This document shows positions 1 to 64,000 of a stretch of DNA of 64,000 nucleotides, in pieces. This DNA comes from an uncultured Mucispirillum sp. (GTDB lineage Bacteria; Chrysiogenota; Deferribacteres; Deferribacterales; Mucispirillaceae): the NCBI GenBank assembly GCA_944326705.1, contig CALVEY010000006.1, forward strand, positions 1,397 to 65,396. Direction: 5' to 3'. The translations under genes and the position numbers were made by a program. Positions within the stretch are counted from its first letter, which is position 1. Every line of letters begins with the position of its first letter. The notes beneath the pieces are model-generated. The model saw only the letters and a program-made list of their open reading frames with translations. It searched no databases and was not told the origin of the DNA.

Positions 1-73
1 TTTTGTGGGCTAAATTGCAGTTATTTTGTTGGGTATATAAATGTATGATAAATAAGAAATAATTGAAATTTAT

Positions 74-153
74 TACACTTTTTGCAACGAAAAAATGTGA
101 AATACTACACTTTTTACAGGGAAAAAGTGGGAAATATTACATTTTTTACAGGG
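74..153. repeat. Three imperfect direct repeats, 32-bp period
   Basis: TACA(C/T)TTTTT at 74, 106 and 138; the middle unit is a perfect CACTTTTT-acaggg-AAAAAGTG inverted repeat (108-129). Confidence 0.8.
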
Positions 154-287
154 AAAGTAATTGCAGTCATTATATTAAACCTATTGTATATATAAAAATC
201 TTTAATATTTCAGCATAAAATATGTGGTTTATAATATTATTTTTATAAAAAATAGTTTACTTTTTATATGTATTTTTATATATTTAT

Positions 288-327
288 AAACACATATAAA
301 CACATTGAAGCACATGTAAGCACATTT
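288..327. repeat. Four phased AA(A/G)CACAT repeats, 10-bp period
   Basis: CACAT at 291, 301, 311, 321 (ATGTG on the minus strand). Confidence 0.85.
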
Positions 328-410
328 AAATGCTTTTAAGTATCTTGAAATATTAAAAAATAGCTATAAATACTTGCATGTATTTATATAATAACAGATA
401 GAGCATCAGA

Positions 411-1250
411 ATGAAAAAAACATATACCCCATTAAGATATCCTGGTGGAAAAAGTAAGCTGGCTAAACAATTTGAAGTAATATGTAAATCTAACAATATC
501 AATATGTATATAGAGCCTTACGCAGGTGGGTTTGGTATTGGTTTATATTTGCTTTTAAATAATATTGTAAAAAATGTTATTATAAATGATATTGACCCTC
601 TTATTTATTCTTTTTGGTATTCTGTATTAAAACATAATAAAAAATTTATAGATATGATATATAATACTGATATTACAATGGATAATTGGTATAAATATAA
701 AGATATAATAAATAATTATAGTAATTATGATAAACTTACTGTTGGTTTTGCTACTTTTTTTATGAATAGAACAAACCGTTCTGGCATAATTAAAGCAGGG
801 GTCATTGGTGGTAAAAATCAAAATGGTAACTATAAACTAGATGCTCGGTTTAAAAAAGATGAGTTAATAGAAAAAATAGAGCGTATTAATAAATATAATG
901 GTAATATTAAACTTTATAATAAAGATGCCCTTGCATTAATTAAAACAATAAAAAATAAGCTAGACAGTCATTCTTTAATATATTTTGACCCACCATATTA
1001 TTATAATGCAAATACACTATATAATAACTTTTATGCACCAAAAGACCATAGAAAAATAGGTAATTTTATACAAAAATTAGCTTATCCATGGATAGTTACT
1101 TATGATGATGTAAAAGAAATATCGGATATATATAGTAATTCTCAAAAGTTTAGTTATACACTAAATTACAGCATATCTAAATATAATAATAAAGGCAGAG
1201 AGTTACTGATATATAATAAAGTTTACTTAAATGAGTCTTCTTTTATATAA
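411..1250 (+). CDS. DNA adenine methyltransferase, Dam/D12 class
   Basis: LRYPGGKSKL, YIEPYAGG (SAM-binding), IYFDPPY (catalytic motif IV); target sequence cannot be read from the protein. Confidence 0.92.
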   Translation: MKKTYTPLRYPGGKSKLAKQFEVICKSNNINMYIEPYAGGFGIGLYLLLNNIVKNVIINDIDPLIYSFWYSVLKHNKKFIDMIYNTDITMDNWYKYKDIINNYSNYDKLTVGFATFFMNRTNRSGIIKAGVIGGKNQNGNYKLDARFKKDELIEKIERINKYNGNIKLYNKDALALIKTIKNKLDSHSLIYFDPPYYYNANTLYNNFYAPKDHRKIGNFIQKLAYPWIVTYDDVKEISDIYSNSQKFSYTLNYSISKYNNKGRELLIYNKVYLNESSFI

Positions 1251-2899
1251 TCATCAATTTTAAATTGATAATAAGTTAAAGTTTTATATAACATGTTCTT
1301 GAGTCCAACATAAAAAAATTTAAGTTTTTCATTATTATTATCATCATCAAGCCATATATTACACATTATATCAAAAAAATCATTGTTATTATTAAATAAC
1401 TCTTTATATATTTCTCTATCTTTTTTATTTTCTTTTTTCAATTTAGTAAATTGATTTTTAATTTTAGAAAATTCAGCTTGCATATTACCATGTCTAGCAA
1501 TGTTTTTTTGCGCCCAAAACTCAGGATTATTTTCATTATTTAATGCATAGTTGTACAATACTTTTTCTGGAGAATCCTCACCTGGTAGAAAAAGAATATG
1601 TTTTGAAAAAAAATTATTTATATCTTTATTATTTGGCTGCTGGTCGCCATCCAGTATGCAGTAAACACCTTTACTATTTTCTAAAAATATTTTGTCATTA
1701 AATAAGTTTAATAGTTCCTTAGAACCACAATTTATATTTAATATGTGCAAAACACTATTTAGATTTTTAAAGTACTTATCTGTTTTTTTATGTTCTATTA
1801 TTTTATTAAAAAAAAATCTAGCCTCGTTATCTTCAGTATAAATTAATATATGATTTGTCGGTTTTTTATAATTTATTATTTTTTTATTTAAATATGCATC
1901 TATTTTCTCAAGAGTAGGATTTTCCATTAATGTAAGATGTGGGCTAGTATCTTGAATATATATTATGTTTGCTTTATATTGAAATCCGTATTTTATTAAA
2001 TTTAAACTATGGGAAGTAAAAATTACTTGTATTTTATATTTTTTAGAATATTCTAAAATGATATTAAAGAGATTTGCCTGCATTTCTGGATGTAAAGTTG
2101 CATCTAGTTCATCTATTAACAGCATGCTTATAACTTCATCATCTTTATTTGGTATATTATTATAATAATACTTTAAAGATACTAAAGCTGTTAAAATAAT
2201 CATTATATTGTCTTCTCCTGCAGAAATAGTATTAGAATCAATACCTTCTGTTGTCGTATCAAATTCTGCTCTTGATTTAATATTTTCTATTTTTATATTT
2301 TTAAACTGTGTAACAGAAATTCCTGTCAAATCTTTATATAGTTCATATAGTTCCTTTTGATACTTATCAGGTAGTTGCTTTGTTATTTTCTTAATTTTTA
2401 TTGATTTATCATTTATTTTTTTGTCATCTATTTCGCCAAAAGGAAAAAGTCTTGATAATCCAAGATATATAACAGGGATTGTTTTTAATGACATATTTTG
2501 CCCTTTTGGATATTTTAAAATCAACCTGAATCTATTATTTTTTCTTAAACTATTCATTCTTGAAGGATTGTGTCGCCTAAATTCTTGCTTTATGTTATCA
2601 AAATACACAATATCTAGTAAAGCACCTTTTGTTTTTGGAGCAGGGTCATTATATTTTTTATCACCTTTAGTTAATGTTTCTATTTTAGGATTAGTTGTCA
2701 TATTAATTGCATTGATTATTGAGATTACTTCAGTAGCAATGTCATTGCTATTTGGAGCTTTAAAAGCATTGCTGCATAGGTGTAAAATAGATGTTTTACA
2801 TGTTCCATTTGTGCCAGATATTATATTTACATTTTGTGTAAATTTTATGTCTAAATCTTTTAATTTTCTGTATTGATTAAAATGTATTTTTTTTATCAC
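1223..2899 (-). CDS. ABC-type (AAA_15/AAA_21-like) ATPase fused to a C-terminal TOPRIM-like nuclease domain (OLD-like)
   Basis: GTG start with AGGAAGG RBS; Walker A GTNGTCKT, signature ISAGE, Walker B LLIDELDATLHP, H-loop FTSHS; C-terminal IYTED...ILDGD...LPG..SPE. Confidence 0.8.
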   Translation of the reverse strand: MIKKIHFNQYRKLKDLDIKFTQNVNIISGTNGTCKTSILHLCSNAFKAPNSNDIATEVISIINAINMTTNPKIETLTKGDKKYNDPAPKTKGALLDIVYFDNIKQEFRRHNPSRMNSLRKNNRFRLILKYPKGQNMSLKTIPVIYLGLSRLFPFGEIDDKKINDKSIKIKKITKQLPDKYQKELYELYKDLTGISVTQFKNIKIENIKSRAEFDTTTEGIDSNTISAGEDNIMIILTALVSLKYYYNNIPNKDDEVISMLLIDELDATLHPEMQANLFNIILEYSKKYKIQVIFTSHSLNLIKYGFQYKANIIYIQDTSPHLTLMENPTLEKIDAYLNKKIINYKKPTNHILIYTEDNEARFFFNKIIEHKKTDKYFKNLNSVLHILNINCGSKELLNLFNDKIFLENSKGVYCILDGDQQPNNKDINNFFSKHILFLPGEDSPEKVLYNYALNNENNPEFWAQKNIARHGNMQAEFSKIKNQFTKLKKENKKDREIYKELFNNNNDFFDIMCNIWLDDDNNNEKLKFFYVGLKNMLYKTLTYYQFKIDDYIKEDSFK

Positions 2900-2930
2900 A
2901 ATATATCCTTCCTATGTCATTTACCATATA

Positions 2931-4394
2931 TTATATAATATCTTTTAATTTATTGCAATAAGTTAATAGTTCATCAACTTTTTCAACAATTCTTTCCTGC
3001 TCTTTAAGTGGTGGTAGTGGGAAATAAAGAATTTCCCATTTACTTTTTTTAATAATTGGAGTTGCTGTTCCACCAGCATTTTTTCTTAAGATACTAGAAA
3101 AATAAGAACTTTGCATTGTATATAAAATATATTTTAAATTAATATGTTTAAAAGGAGTTAGAGTATTAATTTGTTGGTTGCAACATACATCAACTATATT
3201 AAAAAAACATTTACCTATAGAGCCACCAATACAGACCATTAGAATAGAGTTTTTTTCAATAACTCTTGAATATTGTTTGCCGATTTCTGATAATTTTTCA
3301 TTATCATAATTGATAGAAAAATTACTAATATCTGCTGGTTTTATAAAAGGAATATAGTCACCTTGATATATATGCTTTTCAATAGCAGGTGTAGTTCCTG
3401 TTTGTGTATATCCTACTTCCCCCAGTCTGACCCATTTCCAGTTTTCAGGTATATCATAAGGTGTTTCATCATCAGTAATAGGCGGCAGTGGTTTTTCTTT
3501 TTTTATTTTTCCTTGTTTTATTAGGCTTTCTTTTTCTTTTATAATTTTATCATAAAGTATGCTTGCAGGTTCATCGTGAATATCCTGCGGAACTAATTTC
3601 CCTTCTACTGCATATTGTAAAATAGACTTTGGCAAAGTATCTGCAAAATGTTTATCTAATGCAAATAACTTTTCTTCTTCCTGCTCTAATTTATCACATA
3701 AAGCCATAAGCTCATCAATTTTTTTAACAATTCTTTCCTGCTCTTTAAGTGGTGGAAGTGGGAAAAGATATTCTCGTAAAAATTTTAAAGATACAAATGA
3801 TTGAACTGCTCCAGATGATTTTTTCTGCATTATATATTGGTTTAATTGTAAAAAAATCAATAAATATTTATTATAAAAAAAATGGCTTTGATGAAATTTA
3901 AATAAGGCAACATTTTTTATGGCAAATTGTTTATTTATATTTACAATAACAGGATTTCCAATACTTCCTATCATTGCAAATAAAATATCGCCACTATCAA
4001 CAAATGAACGGTTTGCAATTGCTCTATAATCTTCGCTTGATATATATTTTACATTATCAAATAAAATCATGTTATTAGATAGGTTTTTACTAGTAATTAG
4101 TGGAATACCATTTGATATATATTTAGGTGTATCATGCGTTCCATCTCTTACATCGCACACTTCCCCTAGTCTGACCCATTTCCAGTTTCCAGGAATATTA
4201 TAAGGTATTTCATCATCAGTAATAGGCGGCAGTGGTTTTTCTTTTTTTATTTTACCTTGTTTTATTAATGTTTCTTTTTCTTTTATAATTTTATCATAAA
4301 GCTGGCTTGCAGGCTCATCGTGAATATCCTGTGGCACTAATTTTCCTTCTACTGCATACTGTAAAATAGACTTTTTTAAATCTGCTGCTTTCAT
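2931..4394 (-). CDS. hsdS: Type I R-M specificity subunit with two TRDs
   Basis: Duplicated conserved blocks SILQYAVEGKLVPQD...IPxNWKWVRLGEV and FPLPPLKEQERIV; ATG abuts the hsdM stop (TAGATG). Confidence 0.95.
   Translation of the reverse strand: MKAADLKKSILQYAVEGKLVPQDIHDEPASQLYDKIIKEKETLIKQGKIKKEKPLPPITDDEIPYNIPGNWKWVRLGEVCDVRDGTHDTPKYISNGIPLITSKNLSNNMILFDNVKYISSEDYRAIANRSFVDSGDILFAMIGSIGNPVIVNINKQFAIKNVALFKFHQSHFFYNKYLLIFLQLNQYIMQKKSSGAVQSFVSLKFLREYLFPLPPLKEQERIVKKIDELMALCDKLEQEEEKLFALDKHFADTLPKSILQYAVEGKLVPQDIHDEPASILYDKIIKEKESLIKQGKIKKEKPLPPITDDETPYDIPENWKWVRLGEVGYTQTGTTPAIEKHIYQGDYIPFIKPADISNFSINYDNEKLSEIGKQYSRVIEKNSILMVCIGGSIGKCFFNIVDVCCNQQINTLTPFKHINLKYILYTMQSSYFSSILRKNAGGTATPIIKKSKWEILYFPLPPLKEQERIVEKVDELLTYCNKLKDII
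3415..4374. repeat. Intragenic hsdS direct repeats (3415-3630 and 4159-4374, 744-bp offset)
   Basis: About 216-bp near-identical copies; a second shorter pair starts at about 2985 and 3726. Confidence 0.9.
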
Positions 4395-5831
4395 CTATAC
4401 ATCTCTTTTCATAATAGTTTGAATTTCATGCAGTAAATTATCAATATTTTCTGATATTGCTTTTCTTTCATTTATATAGTTATCAATAAAATCATAAGGA
4501 TTTAATATTTCTTCTTCCTCATGTGGAAATCCGCAGAAATCAAGGTTATAATTATTTGCAATTATTTCATCTATGCTTATAAGCTTTGATACATCGCTTA
4601 TCTCTCTATTATTCCACCAGGCACGCACTGGGTCAAAATGAATATCAAGCATAGGGCGGGTTTTAGAAAAATGTTTATATCCTTCTGGCATTTCAAGCCT
4701 GTAATACCAAATATTTTCTGTTTTTTTGCCTTTTTCAAAAAATAAAAGGTTAGTATTAATATTTGTATAAGGTGCAAACACATCATTAGGAAGTCTTATA
4801 ATAGTATGCAGATTACATTCTTCTAAAAGTTTCTTTTTTATGCTTGTTTTTACATTACCGCCAAATAAAAAACCATCTGGCAGGACAAGACCGCATCTGC
4901 CATTTTCTTTTAATAAATACATAATATGCACCATAAATAAATCGGCAGTTTCTTTTGACCTTAAGTTACTTGGCACAGAGCTTGTAACCGCATCTTCTTC
5001 AGCACCACCAAAAGGTGGGTTTGTAACAATAATATCTACTAAATCATTATCGTTATAATCTGCAACAGGTGTGCGAAGTGTATTATCATTTATAATATTC
5101 GGCACATCTATATTATGCAGTATTAAGTTTGTAACACATAATATATGTGGGTATGGTTTTTTCTCTATACCTTTAATATTTGATTGCAACAGTTTATAAT
5201 CTTCTGGAGTATTTAATGTATATCTATCTATTACACTTGTTAAAAAGCCGCCTGTTCCGCATGCAGGGTCCAGCACTTTTTCATGAATTTTAGGGTCTAT
5301 CATTTCTACTATAAATTTAGTAACAGGTCTTGGGGTATAAAACTCTCCAGATTTACCTGCACTTTGCAGGTCTTTAAGCATTGTTTCATATATATCATTA
5401 AATAAATGGAAATCAGGCATAGCAGTAAAATCAAGCTCTTTATTTAATTTATTAATTACCTGCCTAAGTAATGTGCCAGATTTCATATAATTTATAACAT
5501 CATTTATTGTAGTTTTTAAAAGCCATTTGCGTTTTGTTTTATCATTATAGGTTTCAAGAGATTTAATATCATCAAACATATGTTCAATAAATTTTAAAAG
5601 CTCATCGCCAGTAATACCTTCATCATTAGCTGCCCAGTTACGCCATTGATACATTGTAGGCATAACAGGTTTGTAGTTATCTTCTAAAAGTTCCCATTCC
5701 TGTTCTTTATAATCAAAAGCTTTTAAAAATAAAAGCCATGCAATCTGCCCTATATATTGAGCATCGCCATTTATACCTTCGTCCATTCTCATTATATCTT
5801 TTAATGCTTTTGTTAAGCCTGATATTGCCAT
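4395..5831 (-). CDS. hsdM: Type I R-M methyltransferase subunit
   Basis: GEFYTPR, DPACGTGGFL, NPPF. Confidence 0.96.
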   Translation of the reverse strand: MAISGLTKALKDIMRMDEGINGDAQYIGQIAWLLFLKAFDYKEQEWELLEDNYKPVMPTMYQWRNWAANDEGITGDELLKFIEHMFDDIKSLETYNDKTKRKWLLKTTINDVINYMKSGTLLRQVINKLNKELDFTAMPDFHLFNDIYETMLKDLQSAGKSGEFYTPRPVTKFIVEMIDPKIHEKVLDPACGTGGFLTSVIDRYTLNTPEDYKLLQSNIKGIEKKPYPHILCVTNLILHNIDVPNIINDNTLRTPVADYNDNDLVDIIVTNPPFGGAEEDAVTSSVPSNLRSKETADLFMVHIMYLLKENGRCGLVLPDGFLFGGNVKTSIKKKLLEECNLHTIIRLPNDVFAPYTNINTNLLFFEKGKKTENIWYYRLEMPEGYKHFSKTRPMLDIHFDPVRAWWNNREISDVSKLISIDEIIANNYNLDFCGFPHEEEEILNPYDFIDNYINERKAISENIDNLLHEIQTIMKRDV

Positions 5832-5840
5832 TTTTACCTC

Positions 5841-8204
5841 TTATGCTGCATAAATTTCATTTTCAAGTTCTTTTATAATATTTTCAAAATTTTTTCTACC
5901 CTTAAATATGGTATTTAATATATACATTGGGTTGCCTATTTTATTTACTGGCTCCAGTTTTAATATATCTATAGTTTCTAAATTTCTTATATCAGTTTCT
6001 GCATATTTATCAAGCAGGGCATTTATAACTTCCTGCACTTTTGCACCATATTTAGCAAAATAATTGCGTTTTTTTACATTTGCTATACGCTCTTTTTTAG
6101 TTAATGGTGGTTTATCATAAGCTATATGGCAAAGCATATCAAAAGGGTCTAAATCTTTTTTTGTGTTTGCCTTTAATTCTTCCATAAATATACCAGCTTT
6201 TTCCATTTCATCTATTATTATCGATTTTTTCTCTGCACTGTTCCAAGCCTGCAGAAAATTATCAAGAGTGGCATACTTATTTTTTATATTTTTCCTTGTA
6301 TAGTCTTTAAAAGATTCTGTTATAAGTTTGCCATTATAATCTAAATATTTTACTAAATCTTTTAAAACTGATACTTCCACATTATCAACATAATATTTTT
6401 TAGGCTCATTGTTTGCAAGGGGCAGGGAAGTATCTGGCTTTTCATTCTTTTCTTCTTTTTCTGCTGCTTCTGCTGTAAGTGTTTCATCATCAAATTTATA
6501 TTTTTTGCCTTTTGTAGTTATGTCGTATTCTTCACTTTTCAGCGGCTCGCCGTCAAAGGCAGCATCAGCAAAAAGCCTTGTAACATTTCTAAAATCAATT
6601 ATAGTAAAGTAAAGCTTGTTTTTTTCTTCTACAAGCCTTGTGCCTCTGCCTATAATTTGCTTAAATTCTATTATACTGTTTATGTTGCTGTCTATTACTA
6701 TAAACTCTACAGTTTTAGTATCAACTCCAGTAGATAAAAGTTTAGATGTGGTAACTAAAACTGGGTAGCTTGAGTTTTTATTGCAAAAGTTTTCTATTTG
6801 GTTTTTGCCTTCTTCATTATCACTTGTTATCTGCATAACATATTTATCATTTATTTTTACCATATCTGCATTTTCATTAACTAGAGCCTGCCGCATAAAT
6901 GCTGCATGTTCTTGATTTACACAGAAAAAAATTGTTTTTGCCATTCGCTTGTTATGAGCTTTTAAGTAGTCAGATACATATTTTGCAACAGTTTCTGTTC
7001 GTTTGCCTAAAAATAGTGTTCTGTCAAAATCTTTATCGTTATATTCTCTATCTTCTATTAGATTGCCATATTTATCTTTTTGATTACGCTCTGGGCGAAA
7101 GCCCTCTACATCTTTATCTAATATTACGCGTATTACCTTATATGGTGCAAGGAAACCATCTTCTATACCCTGCTTTAAAGAATAGGTATATACTGGCTCT
7201 CCAAAGTATGAAATGTTAGATACTTCTTTATTTTCTTTTGGTGTGGCTGTAAGTCCAATTTGTGCAGCATTGTCAAAATATTCTAATACTTCACGCCATA
7301 AACTATCATCTTTTGCACTGCCTCTGTGGCACTCATCAACTATTACTAAATCAAAAAAATCTTTGCTAAACTGTTTAAATATATTTTTCGTATCATCCTG
7401 CCCTGTAATACTCTGATATAGTGCTAAATATATCTGGTAAGATTTATCAACTTTTCTATTTGTTACCATCGTCATATTTTTTTTAAATGGTGAAAAATCA
7501 CCAGTATATGTTTGGTCGCGCAAAGCTTCTCTATCTGCTAAAAAAAGTATTCTCTTTTTAATACCTGCTTTCCAAAGCCTCCACGCAATTTGGAATGCTA
7601 CATAAGTTTTGCCAGTTCCTGTTGCCATTACTAAAAAAACTCTTTTTTCTCCATTAATTATTGCATTATATGTATTATTAATAGCATTAAGCTGATAATA
7701 TCTAGGTAGTTTGTCATTTTCTGTATAATATGATGAGCTTAACTGTTTTTCTTTTACACTGTCTATATTATTATATTTTTTATACATATCCATAAGTGTA
7801 TCAGGGGAAGGGAACTCAGCAAGGCTTATTTCTTTTTCTATTTTTTCATTTTCACTTGCATATTTATTATGAAAAAGAAAAGCATCACCATTTGATGAAA
7901 ATACAAATGGTATATTAAGCATTTCAGCATATCCTAAAGCCTGCTGTATACCATCTGATATTTTATGTTTATTATCTTTTGCCTCAATTACTGCAATAGG
8001 TGTATGAAAATTATAAAAAAGCACATAGTCTGCTCGTTTAATAGTATTAATATCACGAATACATGTATTATGCCTTGCAACAATTCTTCCTGCTGTAAGC
8101 TGATATTCTTCTCTTATCTGGTGTTCCTGCCAGCCTGCATTTTTAATAGCAGGTGTAATATATCTTGTACGAATTTCCTGTTCAGTAAGCTCTTTTTTAT
8201 CCAT
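5841..8204 (-). CDS. hsdR: Type I R-M restriction subunit, EcoAI/EcoEI-like
   Basis: AD...IEAK nuclease motif, MATGTGKT, DECHRG, GLTATP, QIIGRGTR, EcoEI-type C-terminus. Confidence 0.96.
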   Translation of the reverse strand: MDKKELTEQEIRTRYITPAIKNAGWQEHQIREEYQLTAGRIVARHNTCIRDINTIKRADYVLFYNFHTPIAVIEAKDNKHKISDGIQQALGYAEMLNIPFVFSSNGDAFLFHNKYASENEKIEKEISLAEFPSPDTLMDMYKKYNNIDSVKEKQLSSSYYTENDKLPRYYQLNAINNTYNAIINGEKRVFLVMATGTGKTYVAFQIAWRLWKAGIKKRILFLADREALRDQTYTGDFSPFKKNMTMVTNRKVDKSYQIYLALYQSITGQDDTKNIFKQFSKDFFDLVIVDECHRGSAKDDSLWREVLEYFDNAAQIGLTATPKENKEVSNISYFGEPVYTYSLKQGIEDGFLAPYKVIRVILDKDVEGFRPERNQKDKYGNLIEDREYNDKDFDRTLFLGKRTETVAKYVSDYLKAHNKRMAKTIFFCVNQEHAAFMRQALVNENADMVKINDKYVMQITSDNEEGKNQIENFCNKNSSYPVLVTTSKLLSTGVDTKTVEFIVIDSNINSIIEFKQIIGRGTRLVEEKNKLYFTIIDFRNVTRLFADAAFDGEPLKSEEYDITTKGKKYKFDDETLTAEAAEKEEKNEKPDTSLPLANNEPKKYYVDNVEVSVLKDLVKYLDYNGKLITESFKDYTRKNIKNKYATLDNFLQAWNSAEKKSIIIDEMEKAGIFMEELKANTKKDLDPFDMLCHIAYDKPPLTKKERIANVKKRNYFAKYGAKVQEVINALLDKYAETDIRNLETIDILKLEPVNKIGNPMYILNTIFKGRKNFENIIKELENEIYAA

Positions 8205-8316
8205 AGTATCACCTTGAAATATATTATAAAAATATATTCAATATGTAAAGATAAATATATGTTATAACTTATTAAATTAAAAAGATTTTTAGAGAATATT
8301 TTATAGATATCATTTT

Positions 8317-8964
8317 TTATTTTGGTGTATTTATTATGTTTTCCTGCTTTATTATGTCACTAATTTTGTTAATGACTTTGTTTGAATAAATATGTTTTTG
8401 GAAAGTAAGATATCTAATTAATGATACCAGTTCTTTTTGATATATTATATATGCATTATCTGCTTTATAAGTAATATTTGGAATTTTGCATTTGTTACTG
8501 AAAATAATAATGGAATAGTAGGGTAAATCAAACTTTTGTAAAAGTTTTTTTGCTGCAGCAAGATGTATTTCATTCTGCTTAACTGGGTTTAAAAATTCAT
8601 ATTTTATGCCTTTTTTATTAGTATGATACCACAGCTTGTCATTAATGCTGCCTTCTAAACTGCCGAAATAATTTTTACATTCAAGCACATATATACCTGT
8701 ATTATGGACAGCTAAAATATCTATTTCTGTAACATTGCCATTATTATTTTTAAGAAAAACATTTTTAAAGATAGAGTTTTTTTGAAAGAAATTTTTTATC
8801 AGTAAAAGTATTGTTGTTTCATAAAGTCTGCCAGGCACTTCATTTCTATATTTTTCATTTCTTTCTTTTTTAAGCCTGTATTTTTTTGTGACAAGATATA
8901 TTTTAATAACTGCATATATCAAAAAACACAAAATAACAGCAGATAAATAGAATAAATCATACAT
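8317..8964 (-). CDS. NERD-domain nuclease with N-terminal membrane anchor
   Basis: TEIDILAV...GIYVLECKNYFG...NPVKQN; hydrophobic first 25 aa. Confidence 0.85.
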   Translation of the reverse strand: MYDLFYLSAVILCFLIYAVIKIYLVTKKYRLKKERNEKYRNEVPGRLYETTILLLIKNFFQKNSIFKNVFLKNNNGNVTEIDILAVHNTGIYVLECKNYFGSLEGSINDKLWYHTNKKGIKYEFLNPVKQNEIHLAAAKKLLQKFDLPYYSIIIFSNKCKIPNITYKADNAYIIYQKELVSLIRYLTFQKHIYSNKVINKISDIIKQENIINTPK

Positions 8965-9033
8965 ATTTGTATCTCATATAAGATAAAAGCATTATTTTTA
9001 TATCATAAAAGTATATTTAACTATATATAAATT

Positions 9034-9579
9034 CTAAAATAGATATTTTACAGCTTTTAAAAGGGTGCGCATTAAGTCTTCCATATCATCATTATTATTA
9101 TTATTAGATTTATTTTCTTTTCTATAATCCCATGGGGCCTGCGGGTTGTCCTCTTTCCATAATCCTAACTTCTGCTCTCTTGCATTTTTTTCTGCTTCTG
9201 CATATTTTTTTGATTTGTAATAATATTTATAATGCCATGCCCAGCCTGCTTTTATCATTTCATAATTTAAATCTTTATTATCTCCGTAAAGAGTGGCAAC
9301 TACTCTGCCATAGTCATCTTTACTGCGTATTTTATATGTAAGATTTTTATTTTTTACTATTTTTCTAAGATAATCTCTTGATGCCTGCCCATATTTTTGT
9401 GTTGTTTCTGGAGCATCTATACCATAAAGCCTGATTTTAATTTTTTTATTATCACTGTTTATAATATTTAAAGTATCGCCGTCAGGAATGGATACAATTT
9501 TTATAATGCTTTCATCAGCCAAAGAAGTAAAAGGCAGCATAAACATAAAAATAAAAAATGTTAAAAAAGCTTTTTTCAT
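9034..9579 (-). CDS. Secreted thermonuclease (SNase family)
   Basis: Signal peptide; DGDT, IRLYGIDAPE, DDYGRVVA, AREQKLGLW. Confidence 0.92.
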   Translation of the reverse strand: MKKAFLTFFIFMFMLPFTSLADESIIKIVSIPDGDTLNIINSDNKKIKIRLYGIDAPETTQKYGQASRDYLRKIVKNKNLTYKIRSKDDYGRVVATLYGDNKDLNYEMIKAGWAWHYKYYYKSKKYAEAEKNAREQKLGLWKEDNPQAPWDYRKENKSNNNNNDDMEDLMRTLLKAVKYLF

Positions 9580-9789
9580 AAGTAATCTCTCATTAATTAT
9601 TTAACACTTTCAAAATATTTGTTGGTGATTATTTGATTTTATTTGTTGCAAAAATACTAATAAATACATTAATATCTTCTGAACAATTTATAAATTACAT
9701 AGAACTTTAGTAAATATAAAATGTCTAATTCATAATTGCAACTATTTTATTAAAATATGTCCGCACTGTGCATTATGTAATATAATAGA

Positions 9790-9826
9790 TTGACAAATTT
9801 ATGCAATTTATGTAATTTATGAATTT
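9790..9826 (+). promoter_or_regulatory. Putative promoter of the TolC gene, overlapped by three AATTTATG repeats
   Basis: TTGACA at 9790-9795; AATTTATG at 9796, 9805, 9814; weak -10. Confidence 0.45.
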
Positions 9827-9847
9827 CAGTTTTTATTAGGAGATAAT

Positions 9848-11212
9848 ATGTTTAGATATTTGATTTTAATTATTGCTATAGCTGTTATGCCTTTAACAGC
9901 ATCTGCACTAACGATTGATGAAACAGTTACATTAGCTCTTGACACAAACAATAATATTAAAAGCAAGCAGTATACAGTAAAGGCTAAAGAATTAGCGGCT
10001 GATAATGCTATCCTTATTTTTATGCCTTCTATTGGTGTTAGCTATGATTATGCATATTCATGGCAGGATAAAACAAAAGCTTTAAATACAAAAACAGATG
10101 GCGATTTAGCTACATTAAGTGCTTATGCAAATTTAAACTTATTTAATGGTTTATCAGATTTGTTTGGATATCAGATTGCAAAGCTTGATAAGGATATGGC
10201 AGTATCTGATTTAGATACAGCATCTTACCAGACAATTCTTGATGCTCAGACTGCTTATATTAATCTATTAAAAGCAAAAAGTGACTTAGAAGTGGCAGAA
10301 AGCAATTTAAAATTACTTGAAATGCAGAAAAGAGATGCTCAAATTTCTGCTGATAATGGCTTAATTGCAAAAAATGATTTATTACAGACTGAAACATATT
10401 TAGCTTCTGCACAACTGCAGAAAATTACAGCACAAAGTGCAGTTACGCAGGCTATACAAAGCCTTGAAAAAGTAATAAATAGAAAATTAGACCCAAATGA
10501 AGAACTGATAGAACCAGTTTTTATGGATATTACTTTAGAAAGTGAAGATGTATTAAAAGAAAAAATGTTTGCAAATAGAAGTGATTTAAAAAAGTTAGAG
10601 CAGTCTTATGAATCTGCTAAGAAAACAGAAAATCGTTCATTAAGTGGTGTATATCCAACTATTGATGCATCATTTAGCTTTGCAAGTTATGGTGACTCTG
10701 CTAACCCATTTGCAGGAAACCCTGCTCCAAACGGCACAGATTCTAACATTACTGTTGGTGTTACTGCATCATGGAATTTCTTAACTATTGCATCATCATC
10801 ATTACAGTCAATTTCTAGTAAAAGAACACGTCAGGCACTTGCTTACTCTATTGCTGATACAAAACAAAGTATGGTGCTTGATTTACAAACTAAAATAGAA
10901 AACTACTATACATCAAAAGCTCAGCTTGCTCAATCAATTATAGGTGTGCAGCACGCAGAAGAAAACTACCGCGTTACTAAAAACCTTTATGACCAAAGTG
11001 CAGCAACAATGACAGAGCTTTTAGATGCATCATCATTATTAAATGAAGCAAAAGTTGCTGAATCTAACGCAAGATACAGTGTTATATCTTCAGTATATAA
11101 TTTAGAGTGGGTTATACAGGAAAAACTTCCTGTTCATGAAGTGCAGCAGGATAATGGCACAATGCCTTTAAATAATAATCCAGCAGCACCAGCTAACAGC
11201 CCATTAAGATAA
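9848..11212 (+). CDS. TolC-family outer membrane efflux protein
   Basis: Signal peptide, AGGAG RBS, two OEP-like repeats (AYINLL.A, DLL.TE; AEENY.V....Y...AATMTELLDA). Confidence 0.88.
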   Translation: MFRYLILIIAIAVMPLTASALTIDETVTLALDTNNNIKSKQYTVKAKELAADNAILIFMPSIGVSYDYAYSWQDKTKALNTKTDGDLATLSAYANLNLFNGLSDLFGYQIAKLDKDMAVSDLDTASYQTILDAQTAYINLLKAKSDLEVAESNLKLLEMQKRDAQISADNGLIAKNDLLQTETYLASAQLQKITAQSAVTQAIQSLEKVINRKLDPNEELIEPVFMDITLESEDVLKEKMFANRSDLKKLEQSYESAKKTENRSLSGVYPTIDASFSFASYGDSANPFAGNPAPNGTDSNITVGVTASWNFLTIASSSLQSISSKRTRQALAYSIADTKQSMVLDLQTKIENYYTSKAQLAQSIIGVQHAEENYRVTKNLYDQSAATMTELLDASSLLNEAKVAESNARYSVISSVYNLEWVIQEKLPVHEVQQDNGTMPLNNNPAAPANSPLR

Positions 11213-11415: not shown

Positions 11416-12759
11416 ATGAAAAATTTACTAGAAAAATTAAAAGCTTTTTTCAGCAGAAAAAATGGGGCTGAAACAAGTCAGTCAGGCAGTGAGTCTGCAG
11501 AAAATATTGCAGGTGAAAAACAGCCTGGTCGTTTTAAAAGATTATGTTTAAATATTAAAGCTTATGCAAAAAGAAAACCATCTACTTTTATTGCTATTAT
11601 AGTTGGTATCGTTTTTGTGCTGCTTCTTGTTACTTATGAAGCACTTCACTTAACAAGTACACCAGAATTCTGCGGTATGTGCCACGTGGAAACAGAAACT
11701 GGTGCAGGTGCTGAATATCACACTTGGAAGAAAAATATACACGCTGCTGCTAATGTTGGCTGTATTGACTGCCACGGTAAACCAGGATTTTTTGGCTATA
11801 TGAGAGCTAAAATGGGCGGTATGTATGATTTATACAGTGAAATAGTTCATTCTAAAGAAAACAAAATGGCTATTTTAACAGAAGGTGCTACAAATAAAGA
11901 ATATGCTGCAAAACTTGTTCCAAATGACTGGTGTTTAATATGCCACTCTGATGATGCAAATAAACGCATTAGAGAAAACACATTTATGTCTTTCTTTGGT
12001 GTAAAAATGCGTAAAGTAGATGCAGTTAAAAACCCAGAATTTAGAGAGCTTAACGGCTTAAGAGATATATATAATGATGAAATGCCAAACATTTCTTTCA
12101 GCCACGATAACCATGTTAATACATTAGGTTTAAGCTGTGTAGAATGTCACATGGGTGTTGCTCACGGTGGAGAATTCCAAAACAAAACTAAAATGGAAGA
12201 CTGCTTCACTTGTCACGATGCTGAAAGAGAGAAAAACCCAGAAATAATTGCTCCAGCAAATGATGACTGCGGCACTTGCCACACAACAGTTGTTGCTATG
12301 CATGAAGGCACATTATTATTAGAAGAAGGTGAAGAGCCAACTCCACCATCAATGATGGTAGACCAAGGTGTTTATGGTGCTGAAAACTGTTCTTCATGCC
12401 ATATGGAAGGTGCATTTGATTTACCTACTGCTGCAACATGCGGACCAACATGCCACAGCGAAGGTATGGACTACGGCTTTATGTATGATGACATAAGAGC
12501 TCAGTTTGATGCTGCTAAAGCACCACTTGACACATTAAATATGCAGTTATATGGTGTTCTTGATAAAATGACAAAAGAACAGCGTGCAAAATTTAATGAA
12601 TTTAAAAATTACTATGAAATATTAGTAAATGATAAATCAAAAGGTATACACAACGACAGCATTTATATTAAAGCTGCAGAAAAAGCTACAGCAATAGGTA
12701 ACGAGCTTGCTTCAAGCTTAGGTATTCCTGTAGCTGCACCAGAAGAAGGTCAGGAATAG
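11416..12759 (+). CDS. Membrane-anchored multiheme cytochrome c, NapC/NirT-like N-terminus; 7 CXXCH plus 1 CX3CH
   Basis: One TM helix then TSTPEFCGMCH; CIDCH, CLICH, CVECH, CFTCH, CGTCH, CSSCH, CGPTCH. Confidence 0.88.
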   Translation: MKNLLEKLKAFFSRKNGAETSQSGSESAENIAGEKQPGRFKRLCLNIKAYAKRKPSTFIAIIVGIVFVLLLVTYEALHLTSTPEFCGMCHVETETGAGAEYHTWKKNIHAAANVGCIDCHGKPGFFGYMRAKMGGMYDLYSEIVHSKENKMAILTEGATNKEYAAKLVPNDWCLICHSDDANKRIRENTFMSFFGVKMRKVDAVKNPEFRELNGLRDIYNDEMPNISFSHDNHVNTLGLSCVECHMGVAHGGEFQNKTKMEDCFTCHDAEREKNPEIIAPANDDCGTCHTTVVAMHEGTLLLEEGEEPTPPSMMVDQGVYGAENCSSCHMEGAFDLPTAATCGPTCHSEGMDYGFMYDDIRAQFDAAKAPLDTLNMQLYGVLDKMTKEQRAKFNEFKNYYEILVNDKSKGIHNDSIYIKAAEKATAIGNELASSLGIPVAAPEEGQE

Positions 12760-22861: not shown

Positions 22862-23118
22862 ATTTTTCTATTAATATTATATTAATTTTATCTTATATAT
22901 TATTTATAAATTAAAACAAATTTTTGATTTATGATTTTAAAAATAAAGCCGATAAGTAAAAAAGTGATACTTTATAATAATTTATAAAAATATTTCATTG
23001 CAAAATTAAGAAAAATATATTAAACTAACCATAGTGTCAAAAGGTGTGGAATTATATATCATTTTTCTATGAGATTAAAGTAGTAGTATATTATTGTAGA
23101 ATAATAAGGAGCTATTTA

Positions 23119-24114
23119 ATGAGTAAATTTAGATCTTTTGTTATAAAAGAAAACAATGGAGCTATTGTTAAGGATGTAATTTTGGAAAATACTGAAAACC
23201 TGCCAGCAGGTGATGTTTTAATTAAAGTAATGTATTCTACTATTAACTCTTATGATGTACTCTTTTCTAGGGAAAATACTCCTTTTCGCAATAATACATA
23301 CCCTTATGTTCCAGGTGTTGATGCGGCAGGTATAGTTGTGGAGTCTAACTCTACCCATTACAGGGAAGGGGATGAAGTATTAATATTTGGCAATGGTTTA
23401 GGGCAGGAAGTGCCTGGTGGCTTTGGTCAGTTTGTCCGTGTTCCAGAATCTTGGATTGTAAGCCTGCCAACAGGGCTTTCTATGCAGGATAGTATGACTC
23501 TTGGCTCTGACGGTATTGCTGCAGCTATTTCTGTTATGGAGATTATGGCAGCAGGTATACAGACTAATTCTAAAGATGTAATTGTTGGCGGCTCAGCTTA
23601 CGGCATTGGCGCTTTTGCTGTTTCCATACTTAGTTTATGCGGCTATAATGTTACAGCTGTTACTAAATATATGGAATGCGAAGATTTTATATATGAACTA
23701 GGTGCAAAAAAAGTTCTTAGTTTAGACAGCTTTGCAGATAAATCCGGCAGGCATTTATTAGAAGATAAATATGTAGCAGGTATAGACACTCTTGGTGGCG
23801 ATGTTTTAAACACAATGATACGCTCAGTTAAAGGGGGCTCAACTATTGCTGTGTGCGGTGCTGTTCTTAGTGAAACATTTTCTTCTTCATTACTGCCTTT
23901 AATATTAAGGGGTATTAACCTTGTTGGTATCGATTCTCTCAGGTGCTCTCACAGCTTAAAAAGGGAAGCTCTTTATAAACTTGCAGGCGACTGGTATCTT
24001 AAAACTCTTTCATTTATGTGTAATGAAATATCTATTTTTGAAATCAACGAATATCTTGATAAAATGAATAATAACCCAATCAAAGGAAGGATAGTTATTA
24101 ATCACAAGTTATAG
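23119..24114 (+). CDS. YhdH/AcuI-like quinone oxidoreductase (MDR family), divergent
   Basis: AAGGAG RBS before ATG 23119; PGVDAAG, MTLGSDG, LILRGINLVGIDS. Confidence 0.82.
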   Translation: MSKFRSFVIKENNGAIVKDVILENTENLPAGDVLIKVMYSTINSYDVLFSRENTPFRNNTYPYVPGVDAAGIVVESNSTHYREGDEVLIFGNGLGQEVPGGFGQFVRVPESWIVSLPTGLSMQDSMTLGSDGIAAAISVMEIMAAGIQTNSKDVIVGGSAYGIGAFAVSILSLCGYNVTAVTKYMECEDFIYELGAKKVLSLDSFADKSGRHLLEDKYVAGIDTLGGDVLNTMIRSVKGGSTIAVCGAVLSETFSSSLLPLILRGINLVGIDSLRCSHSLKREALYKLAGDWYLKTLSFMCNEISIFEINEYLDKMNNNPIKGRIVINHKL

Positions 24115-52839: not shown

Positions 52840-53202
52840 ATGGATAAGGCGACTAAGGAGCATTTCCGTGAAAAACTGCTTGCTATGAAAAAAGAGCTTA
52901 TAGAAGCTTTAAACAGCAAGTATAACGAAGCATTAGAGCTTGGTTCTGACGGTATTCAGGATACAGCTGATGAGGCATATAATCTTTATAATAAGAATAT
53001 TATGCTTGGCAGAGTTGAAACAGATGCTCTTAAACTAAGACTTGTTGATCAGGCTTTGCAGAGAATTGAAAATGATACATACGGTGTATGTATAGAATGT
53101 GAGGAAGAAATAAGCCCTCGCAGACTAGAATATGTTCCATTTGCAAGATACTGCACAGAATGTAAAAGTGAGCTGGAGAAAAAAGGCTTAATAAAAATGT
53201 AG
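52840..53202 (+). CDS. dksA: DksA/TraR family transcription factor
   Basis: Coiled-coil tip DTADEA, zinc finger CIEC-x17-CTEC. Confidence 0.88.
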   Translation: MDKATKEHFREKLLAMKKELIEALNSKYNEALELGSDGIQDTADEAYNLYNKNIMLGRVETDALKLRLVDQALQRIENDTYGVCIECEEEISPRRLEYVPFARYCTECKSELEKKGLIKM

Positions 53203-59994: not shown

Positions 59995-60021
59995 TTTTTT
60001 CTCCAAATCATTATATTATAT

Positions 60022-61145: not shown

Positions 61146-61174
61146 TTGACATTGCATACTCCATACTTTAATAT
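61146..61174 (+). promoter_or_regulatory. Sigma70 promoter
   Basis: TTGACA-17-TAATAT. Confidence 0.65.
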
Positions 61175-61205
61175 GGAAAGGTAGTATATTAATATGGAGC
61201 ACAAT

Positions 61206-62234: not shown

Positions 62235-62257
62235 GTAAACTTTAATTTAATAAAAAG

Positions 62258-62291
62258 AAAAGCCTTTTTGAGTAATCAAAAAGGCTTTTTT
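62258..62291. terminator. Bidirectional terminator
   Basis: AAAAGCCTTTTTGA/TCAAAAAGGCTTTT between convergent genes. Confidence 0.85.
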
Positions 62292-62317
62292 GCTGGAGGT
62301 CTATATATGATATAATA

Positions 62318-62740
62318 TTATTTAATATTAATCATTTTTTTAGGTGCTTCCTCTGGTTCTTTTTTAGGTATGGATATAGTTAAAATACCATTTTCAAAAG
62401 CAGCATGTATATCATTTTCAGATACTGCATCGCCTACATAAAAGCTTCTTGAGCAGTTGCTGCTGTATCTTTCTCTTAAAATAAATTTGCTGTCATCAGC
62501 GTTGTTTTCCACATTTCTGTTTGTGCTTACTGTTAAATAGCCGTCTTTTAATTCAGCATTGATTTCTTCTTTTTTAAACCCAGGTAAATCAATGTGGATT
62601 TCAAAGCCTTTATCATTTTCTTTAATATCTGTTCTCATTAAGTCACATTCACTTCTGCGGAATACTTTCTCCATATCTTTTGTAAAGTCATTATTAAGTA
62701 AATCTCTAAAAAGCTGGTTGTTAAAAATTACTGGTAACAT
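62318..62740 (-). CDS. Small heat shock protein Hsp20/alpha-crystallin
   Basis: RTDIKE, IDLPGFKKEEI, ERY...RSF, AAFENGILTISIPK. Confidence 0.95.
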   Translation of the reverse strand: MLPVIFNNQLFRDLLNNDFTKDMEKVFRRSECDLMRTDIKENDKGFEIHIDLPGFKKEEINAELKDGYLTVSTNRNVENNADDSKFILRERYSSNCSRSFYVGDAVSENDIHAAFENGILTISIPKKEPEEAPKKMINIK

Positions 62741-62808
62741 ATTTTATCTCCTTTTATATATAATGTTTTGTAGCTTTTTGCTTTATAAGACTAAATATAT
62801 AAAAATTA

Positions 62809-62835
62809 TTAGCACTGTCAAGTGGTGAGTGCTAA
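62809..62835. promoter_or_regulatory. CIRCE element (HrcA operator) overlapping the hsp20 -35
   Basis: Minus strand TTAGCACTC-N9-CAGTGCTAA, one mismatch to consensus; TTGACA lies inside it. Confidence 0.9.
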
Positions 62836-63166
62836 TTTTTTTAAAATTATATAACTTATTGATATATAAATATAAAATCAATATATCTAGTATAATAATT
62901 AACACTTTCATCTAATATGTTAATATAAAATATCTTTCTTACTATCTTTCCTGTCAGCATTAAAATTTAAGGCAAATTCTTGTTTAAAAATAATAAAAGT
63001 ATTTTATATAATTATTAAAATTATAAAATAAAATTATGATAAAATGTTTATAATATTTGATAAAAATATCTTGACAAATGTTGAAATTATCCTGTAATAT
63101 AAAGGAAAATTATAAAATAGAAATATGTTTTATAATTTTAAAAAATTATATCTTAAAAGGTGTTGT

Positions 63167-64000
63167 ATGGATACTGTAATGTTGGTTCTGCAGTTTATAG
63201 TTTTACTAGCTGCAATATTTTTAGGCGTTCGTCTTGGCGGTATAGCTATTGGCTATGCTGGTGGTCTTGGCGTTGTTGTTTTATCTCTTGCATTAGGTAT
63301 GGAGCCTGGAGTTATTCCCTGGGATGTTATACTTATTATTATGTCAGTAATCGCAGCTATTACTGCAATGCAGGTTGCAGGCGGGCTTGATTATCTTGTA
63401 CAGCTTGCAGAAAGAGTATTAAGGAAAAATCCAAAGCAGATTAACTACCTTGCACCAACAGTTACATATCTTTTAACTCTTTTTGCTGGAACTGGCCATA
63501 CTGCATTTTCTATGATACCAGTTATTGTTGAAGTAGCAAAAGAGCAGAATATTAAGCCATCAGCACCACTTGCACTTGCTGTCGTTTCTTCTCAGATAGC
63601 AATAACAGCTTCACCTGTAAGTGCTGCAGTTATCTTTTTAAGCGGTGTACTTGAGCCGCTAGGTGTAAGCTATCCACTTTTACTTGGAATATGTATCCCT
63701 ACAACATATTTAGGCTGTATGATAGCTGCTTTTATTATTAATAAATTCAGCAACTTAAAACTTTCTGATGACCCAGTATATCAAGAAAGACTTGCTGCAG
63801 GTCTTATTAAAAAAACATCTGAATCAGTGCAGCATAAAGAGCTTCCAAAAGGGGCAAAACTTTCTGTATTAATATTCTTAATAGGGGTTATAGCTGTTGT
63901 TATTTATGCCAGCGCTATAAGCGATGCTTTAAAATGGATAGACCCTGTTATTATGAAAAGAGACCATGCAATTATCAGTTTTATGCTTGCTATTGCAACA
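63167..64000 (+). CDS. dcuA: Anaerobic C4-dicarboxylate transporter, 5' part (runs off the window)
   Basis: Hand translation from ATG 63167: MDTVMLVLQFIVLLAAIFLGVRLGGIAIGYAGGLG...IPWDVILII...AMQVAGGLDYLV...GTGH...SQIAITASPVSAA; not in the ORF track because no stop lies in the window. Confidence 0.92.
   Translation, partial: MDTVMLVLQFIVLLAAIFLGVRLGGIAIGYAGGLGVVVLSLALGMEPGVIPWDVILIIMSVIAAITAMQVAGGLDYLVQLAERVLRKNPKQINYLAPTVTYLLTLFAGTGHTAFSMIPVIVEVAKEQNIKPSAPLALAVVSSQIAITASPVSAAVIFLSGVLEPLGVSYPLLLGICIPTTYLGCMIAAFIINKFSNLKLSDDPVYQERLAAGLIKKTSESVQHKELPKGAKLSVLIFLIGVIAVVIYASAISDALKWIDPVIMKRDHAIISFMLAIAT

What the first reader, a model, noticed from the sequence alone, without database searches (positions are those of the whole stretch)
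1..64000. GATC is almost absent from the whole window, including core genes
Seen: I found GATC only once by eye (53047-53050), though a few may have been missed. At about 30% GC roughly 175 would be expected (64000 x 0.15^2 x 0.35^2). Asp-Pro, Asp-Gln and Asp-His junctions use GAC-C in island and housekeeping genes alike (e.g. near 595, 10490, 30270, 37606, 51168, 63770), although GAT is otherwise the dominant Asp codon. Established: palindrome avoidance tracks exposure to restriction systems, and GATC is the target of the Dam, DpnI, DpnII and Sau3AI families. Inference: long-term lineage-wide selection against GATC; any link to the Dam-family gene at 411 is unproven.
Basis: partly seen in the sequence, partly recalled or inferred. 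Interest (0 to 1): 0.62.

Follow-up and report, generated by a model that had tools for sequence, protein, structure and literature searches.

The report
GATC avoidance left by DpnII restriction
GATC is about 50 times rarer than expected across this bacterium's whole genome and genus, most likely because a GATC-cutting DpnII/Dam restriction system has long lived in the lineage, although this strain has recently lost it; this is a clear example of a known effect.

Summary
The window has 2 GATC sites (23132 and 53047); 106-183 are expected. The whole 2.39-Mb genome has 85 against about 4,600 expected, a ratio of 0.019. That is the lowest of all 256 tetramers by more than ten-fold. It holds in all three codon phases and in non-coding DNA. 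Asp before C is GAT in 3.4% of cases, against 76-87% elsewhere.

All 12 congeners sampled are equally depleted; other genera much less.

This genome has no DpnII, Sau3AI/MutH or DpnI homologue and no true Dam. Most congeners carry a two-gene Dam (DpnM-like) + DpnII cassette between a ybgF-like gene and lepA, flanked by ~42-bp direct repeats. Here that site is empty, with one repeat copy. Same-species metagenome contigs carry either form (about 8 of 24 with the cassette). The flank trees need at least 3 changes of cassette state, and this strain nests among cassette-bearing strains.

So the avoidance is the imprint of a long-resident, recently lost GATC restriction-modification system. Avoidance left by lost systems is already described (Rusinov 2015).

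The methylase at 411 is not Dam. It matches component B of the PD-Lambda-5 defence system and is found in only 5 of 13 genomes. Interest is moderate to low.

The parts
1..64000 (.). Stretch with near-total GATC depletion (2 sites). It is representative of the whole genome, whose observed/expected ratio is 0.019.
23132..23135 (.). It reads AGA|TCT near the 5' end of a zinc alcohol-dehydrogenase-like ORF (23044-24114). The Pfam domains begin at residue 55, so the real start codon may lie downstream of the site.
53047..53050 (.). Residual GATC site inside a DksA/TraR zinc-finger gene (52840-53202).
411..1250 (+). D12-class adenine methyltransferase. It is not a Dam-subfamily member. It matches PD-Lambda-5 component B over its full length, so it is probably not the cause of the GATC avoidance.
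   Evidence: homologues in only 5 of 13 genus genomes
1223..2899 (-). Convergent AAA_15/AAA_21 ATPase whose best PADLOC match is ATPase-Toprim_I-B. It is the likely nuclease partner of the 411 methylase, forming a PD-Lambda-5-like pair. An IS3-family transposase lies just upstream of the window (C6:40-1340).

Best explanation
GATC has been purged from this lineage by long-term selection from an orthodox type II restriction-modification system that cuts unmethylated GATC. The system is a two-gene cassette: a Dam-family methylase closest to DpnM, and a DpnII-family endonuclease. It sits between a ybgF-like TPR gene and lepA across the genus. Under the established model, occasional under-methylation, and the establishment or loss of such a system, cause self-cleavage, so genomes with fewer sites are favoured. 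The purge used synonymous choices in all three codon phases and also acted on non-coding DNA. This strain carries the empty allele. The cassette was most likely removed by recombination between the ~42-bp direct repeats (a terminator hairpin) that flank it, leaving one copy. The loss is recent: the nearest same-species strains still carry the intact cassette and there is no sign that GATC sites are returning. The GATC gap here is therefore a trace of a system that the strain lacks but its population still holds. Shown: the depletion, its spread across relatives, the cassette's synteny, the empty site, the within-species polymorphism and the lack of relaxation. Inferred: the GATC specificity of the cassette enzymes (by homology), the direction of the event (loss rather than gain) and the selective mechanism.
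For: Depletion. Spread across the genus: all 12 congeners show 0-4 observed against 31-48 expected in 20 kb. Larger samples give G004 0.029, G007 0.046, G012 0.046 and this genome 0.019. Sister genera g2 and g4 are at about 0.2-0.26, g3 at 0.55-0.75, and other families at 0.2-1.0. Enzymes: PF04556 DpnII is found in 8 of 12 congeners at 240-354 bits and not in this genome. The neighbouring Dam scores 274-283 bits on TIGR00571 (cut-off 115), and its best solved relative is DpnM, 2DPM, at E = 4e-54. Synteny: the cassette lies between the DNA matching C4:~406-2900 and C4:~2880-4800 in G001, G003, G004, G007 and G009; G006 has Dam only at that locus. Dam and DpnII diverge in the same pattern as the flanking genes, for example Dam 82% against 55-58% and the ybgF-like gene 95-96% against 85-87%. 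Empty site: this genome's C4:2811-2944 holds one copy of TTTAGCAATAAAAAAAGCCCATACAGTGTATGTATGGGCTTT, which flanks the cassette on both sides in G004 and G007. tblastn finds no remnant of the cassette. Polymorphism: among 24 metagenome contigs that encode the identical YbgF-like protein, about 8 carry intact Dam (293 aa) + DpnII (284 aa) with two repeat cores. About 16 are empty with one repeat core, and one of them is 99.99% identical to this contig. Both flank trees place this strain inside a grade of cassette-bearing strains, with SH-aLRT support of 97-99 on the left flank and 87-99 on the right, and both need at least 3 state changes. No relaxation: GATC sites unique to this genome in orthologous DNA number 4, 2 and 5, against 8, 21 and 17 unique to G004, G007 and G012. 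Where G004 has GAC before C, this genome has GAT in 0.5% of cases, against 24% in other contexts. Literature: avoidance tracks how long a restriction system has been resident, and traces of lost systems are described (PMC4687349).
Against: This genome has no GATC endonuclease or true Dam, yet it is the most depleted genome sampled and has gained fewer GATC sites than relatives with an intact cassette. A pure fading-trace model would predict equal or more gains. The assembly is 96.9% complete in 79 contigs, so a copy elsewhere cannot be excluded. The GATC specificity of the cassette enzymes rests on homology only. No methylation data exist. The trees are built on only 1.8-2.4 kb of flank and may be affected by recombination.
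Confidence: 0.8

Rival explanations
1. Selection against GATC is still active in this strain, through a GATC-specific nuclease that none of the searched families recognises, or one that lies in the unassembled ~3% of the genome.
For: There is no relaxation: this genome has the lowest ratio (0.019) and the fewest lineage-specific GATC gains. G012 pairs a true Dam with an unclassified 174-aa PDDEXK_11 nuclease at another locus, and G006 has a DUF7004 gene beside its Dam. So GATC systems with unfamiliar nucleases may exist in the genus.
Against: This genome has no homologue of DpnII, MutH/Sau3AI, DpnI, the G012 nuclease or the G006 ORF. It has no Dam-subfamily methylase to protect its 85 sites. 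Recent loss, with the nearest sister strains still cassette-bearing, explains the lack of relaxation without any extra enzyme.
Confidence: 0.08
2. The methylase at 411-1250 and its convergent ATPase/TOPRIM partner (1223-2899) form a restriction-like system that targets GATC and drives the avoidance.
For: The methylase belongs to the D12 class, the same broad class as Dam. It sits in a defence island beside a nuclease-type ATPase.
Against: It scores 55 bits on the Dam model (cut-off 115) and is 24% identical to the cassette Dam. In the alignment it has NRTNRSGIIKAG where the cassette Dam has NKTCFNGLYRVN. That this stretch is the hairpin that reads GATC comes from my knowledge of the Dam-DNA structures, not from a test here. 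Its best match is PD-Lambda-5_B at 365 bits. Homologues occur in only 5 of 13 genus genomes, while all 13 are depleted. It lies next to an IS3 element, which suggests recent mobility.
Confidence: 0.05
3. The cause is not restriction but a mutational or codon-context bias, Dam/MutH mismatch-repair effects, or regulatory constraints on GATC.
For: CpG-containing and several other palindromes are also low, which shows that general compositional forces act on this genome.
Against: The depletion is 10-fold deeper than for any other tetramer. It is present in all three codon phases and in non-coding DNA, and it survives the codon-shuffle and Markov controls. No MutH is found in the genus. The eight lowest tetramers are all palindromes. 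The depletion follows the spread of a GATC restriction cassette across relatives.
Confidence: 0.03

Closest known systems
Recognition-site avoidance caused by orthodox type II restriction-modification systems, including traces of lost systems (Gelfand & Koonin 1997 from my own knowledge; Rusinov et al. 2015, PMC4687349)
   Same: A short palindromic site is strongly under-represented. The matching system is present in close relatives and absent from the genome in hand. The avoidance goes with long residence of the system.
   Different: The magnitude is very large: a ratio of 0.02, against the threshold of 0.78 for calling under-representation in that paper. Here the empty site, the flanking repeats and the presence/absence polymorphism within one species are all resolved at sequence level.
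The Streptococcus pneumoniae DpnII cassette (dpnM, dpnA, dpnB) and its alternative DpnI cassette at the same locus
   Same: It has a DpnM-like Dam methylase (best PDB match 2DPM) and a DpnII-family endonuclease (PF04556). The cassette occupies one fixed chromosomal locus and is polymorphic in the population.
   Different: The cassette has two genes only, with no DpnA-type second methylase. The alternative allele is empty rather than a DpnI cassette, and no DpnI family member is found in the genus apart from one hit in G011 below the family cut-off. The cassette is bounded by ~42-bp direct repeats.
PD-Lambda-5 two-gene anti-phage system (PADLOC models PDLC04018 and PDLC04019)
   Same: The window methylase at 411-1250 matches component B over its full length at 365 bits and lies beside an ATPase-TOPRIM-type gene.
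   Different: The partner's best PADLOC match is ATPase-Toprim_I-B, and PD-Lambda-5_A is not among the 25 shown. Its target motif is unknown, and nothing links it to GATC.

Membership tests
Restriction-site avoidance (trace of an orthodox type II restriction-modification system) | The site is significantly under-represented against Markov, shuffle and codon-preserving null models | tested here: met
   The ratio is 0.019 (Markov) and 0.021 (codon shuffle). Window: 2 sites against 106 +/- 11 expected.
Restriction-site avoidance (trace of an orthodox type II restriction-modification system) | An endonuclease and methylase of that specificity are encoded in the genome itself | tested here: not met
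   This genome has no PF04556, PF02976 or PF06044 hit, no methylase above the TIGR00571 cut-off and no tblastn remnant.
Restriction-site avoidance (trace of an orthodox type II restriction-modification system) | The matching system is present in close relatives, which marks the avoidance as a trace of a lost system | tested here: met
   8 of 12 congeners and about 8 of 24 same-species contigs carry Dam + DpnII at the syntenic site.
Restriction-site avoidance (trace of an orthodox type II restriction-modification system) | The system has been resident in the lineage for a long time | tested here: met
   The cassette sits at the same locus in six species, and its divergence follows that of the flanking genes.
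DpnII/MboI-type GATC restriction-modification system (the cassette in relatives) | DpnII-family endonuclease next to a Dam-family methylase | tested here: met
   This was tested in relatives, not in the window. PF04556 scores 240-354 bits, TIGR00571 scores 274-283 bits, and 2DPM is the best PDB match.
DpnII/MboI-type GATC restriction-modification system (the cassette in relatives) | A second, DpnA-type methylase that acts on single-stranded DNA | tested here: not met
   Only two genes lie between the ybgF-like gene and lepA.
DpnII/MboI-type GATC restriction-modification system (the cassette in relatives) | Cleavage of unmethylated GATC and methylation to G6mATC | not testable with these tools
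   This needs enzyme assays or a methylome. It is inferred here from homology only.
Dam subfamily (TIGR00571), for the window gene 411-1250 | Score above the curated cut-off and conservation of the FNGLYRVN..FNVP stretch shared by DpnM and the cassette Dam | tested here: not met
   It scores 55 bits against a cut-off of 114.85. It is 24% identical to the cassette Dam and the stretch is replaced.
PD-Lambda-5 defence system, for window 411-2899 | Component B methylase with an adjacent component A | tested here: inconclusive
   Component B matches at 365 bits over its full length. The neighbour is an ATPase-TOPRIM type, but PD-Lambda-5_A is not among its listed best matches.
Methyl-dependent DpnI-type or MutH/Sau3AI-type GATC nucleases | A family member is present in the genome or genus | tested here: not met
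   This genome has no hit. The only hits in the genus or order are one below the family cut-off in G011, a DpnI in another family (G021) and a MutH in G027.

The most novel reading that the evidence does not exclude
The near-zero GATC count is not just a fading scar. It is actively maintained in a population that keeps the DpnII/Dam cassette as a presence/absence polymorphism. The cassette would be repeatedly excised through its ~42-bp flanking repeats and possibly regained by homologous recombination across the conserved flanks. With only about 85 sites, a cell can survive losing the methylase or receiving the endonuclease, so the cassette's addictive hold is broken. DNA can also pass freely between methylated and unmethylated strains. 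On this view selection against GATC continues even in cassette-free strains. That would explain why this cassette-free genome is the most depleted and has gained the fewest GATC sites.
Probability: 0.3. Interest if true: 0.55.

Novelty: new member of a known kind. Interest (0 to 1): 0.35.

Why it matters
This is an unusually clean natural example of how a restriction-modification system reshapes a host genome. The depletion is about 50-fold and was achieved through synonymous codon choice. The matching cassette, its empty site, its flanking repeats and its within-species polymorphism are all visible at sequence level. The lineage could serve as a model for measuring how fast avoidance decays after a system is lost. 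It could also test whether avoidance weakens the addictive behaviour of restriction systems or lowers barriers to gene flow between strains. On the practical side, GATC enzymes such as Sau3AI, MboI and DpnII will barely cut this organism's DNA (about one site per 28 kb). Composition-based binning or detection of acquired DNA in this genus could use GATC-rich patches as markers of recent acquisition.

Tried and rejected
I sampled 20-kb and about 440-kb stretches instead.
- The one scan of named genomes, using the relatives' DpnII protein, returned only two distant hits and no name for the genus. FtsZ look-ups gave only metagenome sample codes. The taxon is therefore unnamed. From gene content (outer membrane, multihaem cytochromes, ankyrin proteins, a complete dcw cluster), 32% GC and a 2.4-Mb genome I guess a Mucispirillum-like member of the Deferribacterota. 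This is unverified: searches did not settle it.
- I first suspected that the second D12 methylase in this genome (C26:18334-19332) was a Dam. It sits in an IceA/NlaIII-like island, whose presumed target is CATG, and scores only 19.5 bits on the Dam model, so I rejected it.
- I looked for relaxed selection after cassette loss, meaning more GATC gains in this lineage, and found none.
- A literature search for GATC in the guessed genus found nothing relevant.
Full report
**Observation**

GATC occurs twice in the 64-kb window, at 23132 and 53047.
- Dinucleotide-preserving shuffles give 106 +/- 11 sites, and none of 100 shuffles fell below 2.
- Base composition predicts 183 sites and a second-order Markov model 113.

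The window is C6:1397-65396 of a 2.39-Mb, 79-contig assembly.
- Genome-wide there are 85 GATC sites against a Markov expectation of 4,594, a ratio of 0.019.
- This is the lowest of all 256 tetramers by more than ten-fold. The eight lowest tetramers are all palindromes: ACGT 0.23, GTAC 0.27, GGCC 0.28, CCGG 0.31, TCGA 0.32, GCGC 0.43 and CTAG 0.44.

**Codon-level control**

I took 1,936 non-overlapping long ORFs, covering 88% of the genome, and shuffled synonymous codons within each gene. This predicts 3,832 +/- 47 GATC sites; 79 are observed, a ratio of 0.021. DNA outside ORFs has 7 sites against 320 expected. All three codon phases are purged:

| Context | In the GATC-forming context | Elsewhere |
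|---|---|---|
| Asp codon GAT, before C | 3.4% (69 of 2,032) | 76-87% |
| Ile codon ATC, after G | 0.1% | 5-10% |
| Arg codons ending GA, before TC | 0.7% | 58% |
| Gly codon GGA, before TC | 0.1% | 18% |
| Ser after a codon ending GA | TCN 5 times | AGY 881 times |

In the window, Asp before C is GAC 59 times and GAT once.

**Residual sites**

- The 85 sites are clustered. There are 19 neighbour pairs within 1 kb, against 2.9 expected and a maximum of 10 in 2,000 simulations.
- They are enriched in low-GC segments: 25% of sites lie in 1-kb stretches below 27% GC, against 10% of genome windows.
- Four sites lie in a 3.8-kb island on C26, which encodes an IceA/NlaIII-like protein and two methylases. 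Three lie in a segment of C4 that other species of the genus lack. Two lie in the T-arms of tRNA-Val and tRNA-Lys genes.
- This pattern fits recently acquired DNA plus a few functionally constrained sites.

**Spread across relatives**

| Group | GATC observed/expected |
|---|---|
| All 12 same-genus genomes, 20-kb samples | 0-4 observed against 31-48 expected |
| This genome (whole) | 0.019 |
| G004, about 440 kb | 0.029 |
| G007, about 440 kb | 0.046 |
| G012, about 440 kb | 0.046 |
| Sister genera g2 and g4 | about 0.2-0.26 |
| Sister genus g3 | 0.55-0.75 |
| Other families of the order | 0.2-1.0 |

ACGT, GTAC, TCGA and GCGC depletion, by contrast, varies widely between congeners. GTAC, for example, is 0.055 in G007 and 0.545 in G004. 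GATC avoidance is therefore old and genus-wide, while the other avoidances reflect the histories of individual strains.

**Enzymes**

This genome has:
- no DpnII-family (PF04556), MutH/Sau3AI-family (PF02976) or DpnI-family (PF06044) sequence;
- no tblastn remnant of the relatives' DpnII or Dam.

Its two D12-class methylases are not Dam.
- The window gene 411-1250 scores 55 bits on TIGR00571, whose cut-off is 114.85. It is 24% identical to the relatives' Dam and has NRTNRSGIIKAG where Dam and DpnM have N.T.FNGLYRVN....FNVP. From my own knowledge of the Dam-DNA structures, that stretch is the hairpin that reads GATC. The gene matches PADLOC PD-Lambda-5_B over its full length at 365 bits.
- The C26 gene scores 19.5 bits on the Dam model. 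It lies beside an IceA (NlaIII-like) gene, whose presumed target is CATG.

In contrast, 8 of 12 congeners have a DpnII-family gene at 240-354 bits. Immediately beside it is a Dam that scores 274-283 bits on TIGR00571. Its best solved relative is DpnM (2DPM, E = 4e-54), ahead of E. coli Dam.

**The locus**

- In G001, G003, G004, G007 and G009 the two-gene cassette lies between a ybgF-like TPR gene and lepA.
- In G004 the endonuclease gene is split by an IS1595 transposase.
- In G006 only Dam remains at that locus, beside a DUF7004 gene.
- G012 has a Dam with an unclassified 174-aa PDDEXK_11 nuclease at a different locus.
- Dam and DpnII identities follow those of the flanking genes. Dam is 82% identical within the near clade and 55-58% to the far clade; the ybgF-like gene is 95-96% and 85-87%. 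This argues for vertical inheritance at the locus.
- In this genome the flanks abut at C4:2811-2944.
- The cassette in G004 and G007 is bounded on both sides by a ~42-bp direct repeat, a terminator hairpin: TTTAGCAATAAAAAAAGCCCATACAGTGTATGTATGGGCTTT. This genome has exactly one copy. That is what deletion by recombination between the repeats would leave.

**Population**

A look-up of contigs encoding the identical YbgF-like protein read 24 contigs and showed 9 distinct places.
- About 8 of the 24 carry intact Dam (293 aa) + DpnII (284 aa) with two repeat cores 1,845 bp apart.
- About 16 are empty with one repeat core.
- Their flanks are 95-99.99% identical to this genome. One independent assembly is 99.99% identical and also empty, so the empty site is not an assembly artefact.
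- Maximum-likelihood trees of both flanks place the species clade inside the cassette-bearing genus.
- They place this strain (with L141 and L144) inside a grade of cassette-bearing strains, with SH-aLRT support of 97-99 on the left flank and 87-99 on the right.
- Both trees need at least 3 changes of cassette state.

So the loss in this strain is recent, and losses recur.

**No relaxation**

- In orthologous DNA, GATC sites unique to this genome number 4, 2 and 5. Sites unique to G004, G007 and G012 number 8, 21 and 17.
- Where G004 has GAC before C, this genome has GAT in 2 of 364 cases (0.5%). In non-C contexts the figure is 262 of 1,092 (24%).

This fits a very recent loss. It also leaves room for continuing selection in a population that still holds the cassette.

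**Interpretation**

The best explanation is the known one: avoidance of the site of an orthodox type II restriction-modification system with a long residence time, seen here in a strain that has just lost the system. Rusinov et al. 2015 describe both the dependence on residence time and traces of lost systems, and they discuss GATC as a special case in species with mixed methylation states (PMC4687349).

The suggested link to the gene at 411 is not. That gene and the convergent ATPase-TOPRIM gene (1223-2899) look like a PD-Lambda-5-type defence pair. They sit in an island next to an IS3 element, an EcoAI-family type I system, a NERD protein and an SNase. An earlier unchecked note in this scan made a similar suggestion about this pair.

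**Limits**

- The GATC specificity of the cassette rests on homology.
- The organism could not be named. My guess of a Mucispirillum-like member of the Deferribacterota is unverified.
- Counts for relatives rest on samples of 20-450 kb, not whole genomes.
- The assembly is 96.9% complete.

Noticed in passing
window 411-2899 (plus C6:40-1340 just upstream of the window): A D12 methylase matches PD-Lambda-5_B at 365 bits. It is convergent with, and overlaps by 28 bp, an AAA_15 ATPase-TOPRIM-type gene. An IS3-family transposase pair lies directly upstream. This is a likely PD-Lambda-5-like defence pair with an unknown target motif. Homologues of the methylase occur in 5 of 13 genus genomes.
   Followed up: partly
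window 2931-9579: The defence island continues with type I hsdS (2931-4394), hsdM (4395-5831), an EcoAI/FtnUII-family hsdR (5841-8204, 1,083 bits), a NERD-domain protein (8317-8964) and a staphylococcal-nuclease homologue (9034-9579).
   Followed up: partly
this genome, C26:15534-19332 (locus L138): An inserted restriction island carries an HTH controller-like gene, an IceA/NlaIII-like protein (268 bits), a 380-aa protein of unknown function, an N6_N4 methylase and a D12 methylase. It holds 4 of the genome's 85 GATC sites. CATG, the presumed target, is only mildly depleted (0.66), which fits a recent arrival.
   Followed up: partly
relatives: L066 (G004) 8466-10040; L062 (G006) 9031-9444; L063 (G012) 9098-10580: The GATC system is decaying or being replaced in congeners. 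In G004 DpnII is split by an IS1595 transposase. In G006 Dam remains with a DUF7004 gene beside it in place of DpnII. In G012 a true Dam is paired with an unclassified 174-aa PDDEXK_11 nuclease at another locus, which is a candidate new GATC endonuclease family.
   Followed up: partly
20-kb and 440-kb samples of congeners (L007-L018, L076-L135): Depletion of ACGT, GTAC, TCGA, GCGC and GGCC differs sharply between species of the same genus. For example GTAC is 0.055 in G007 and 0.545 in G004, and ACGT is 0 of 25 in one genome and 36 of 43 in another. This implies quickly changing sets of restriction systems, unlike the uniform GATC purge.
   Followed up: no
this genome, C39:965-1039 and 1141-1216: Two residual GATC sites lie in the T-arm (GGGATCGAACC on the listed strand) of tRNA-Val and tRNA-Lys genes. 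These sites are presumably kept by functional constraint.
   Followed up: yes
this genome, C4:~4800-8450 (locus L136): A 3.6-kb segment is absent from other species of the genus, and most of it is present in same-species contigs. It encodes 690-aa and 239-aa proteins with no Pfam match and holds 3 GATC sites.
   Followed up: partly
window 12904-14847: A 647-aa protein is made almost entirely of ankyrin repeats. It lies beside a TolC-like gene (9848-11212) and a multihaem NapC/NirT-type cytochrome (11416-12759), which suggests a host-associated lifestyle.
   Followed up: no
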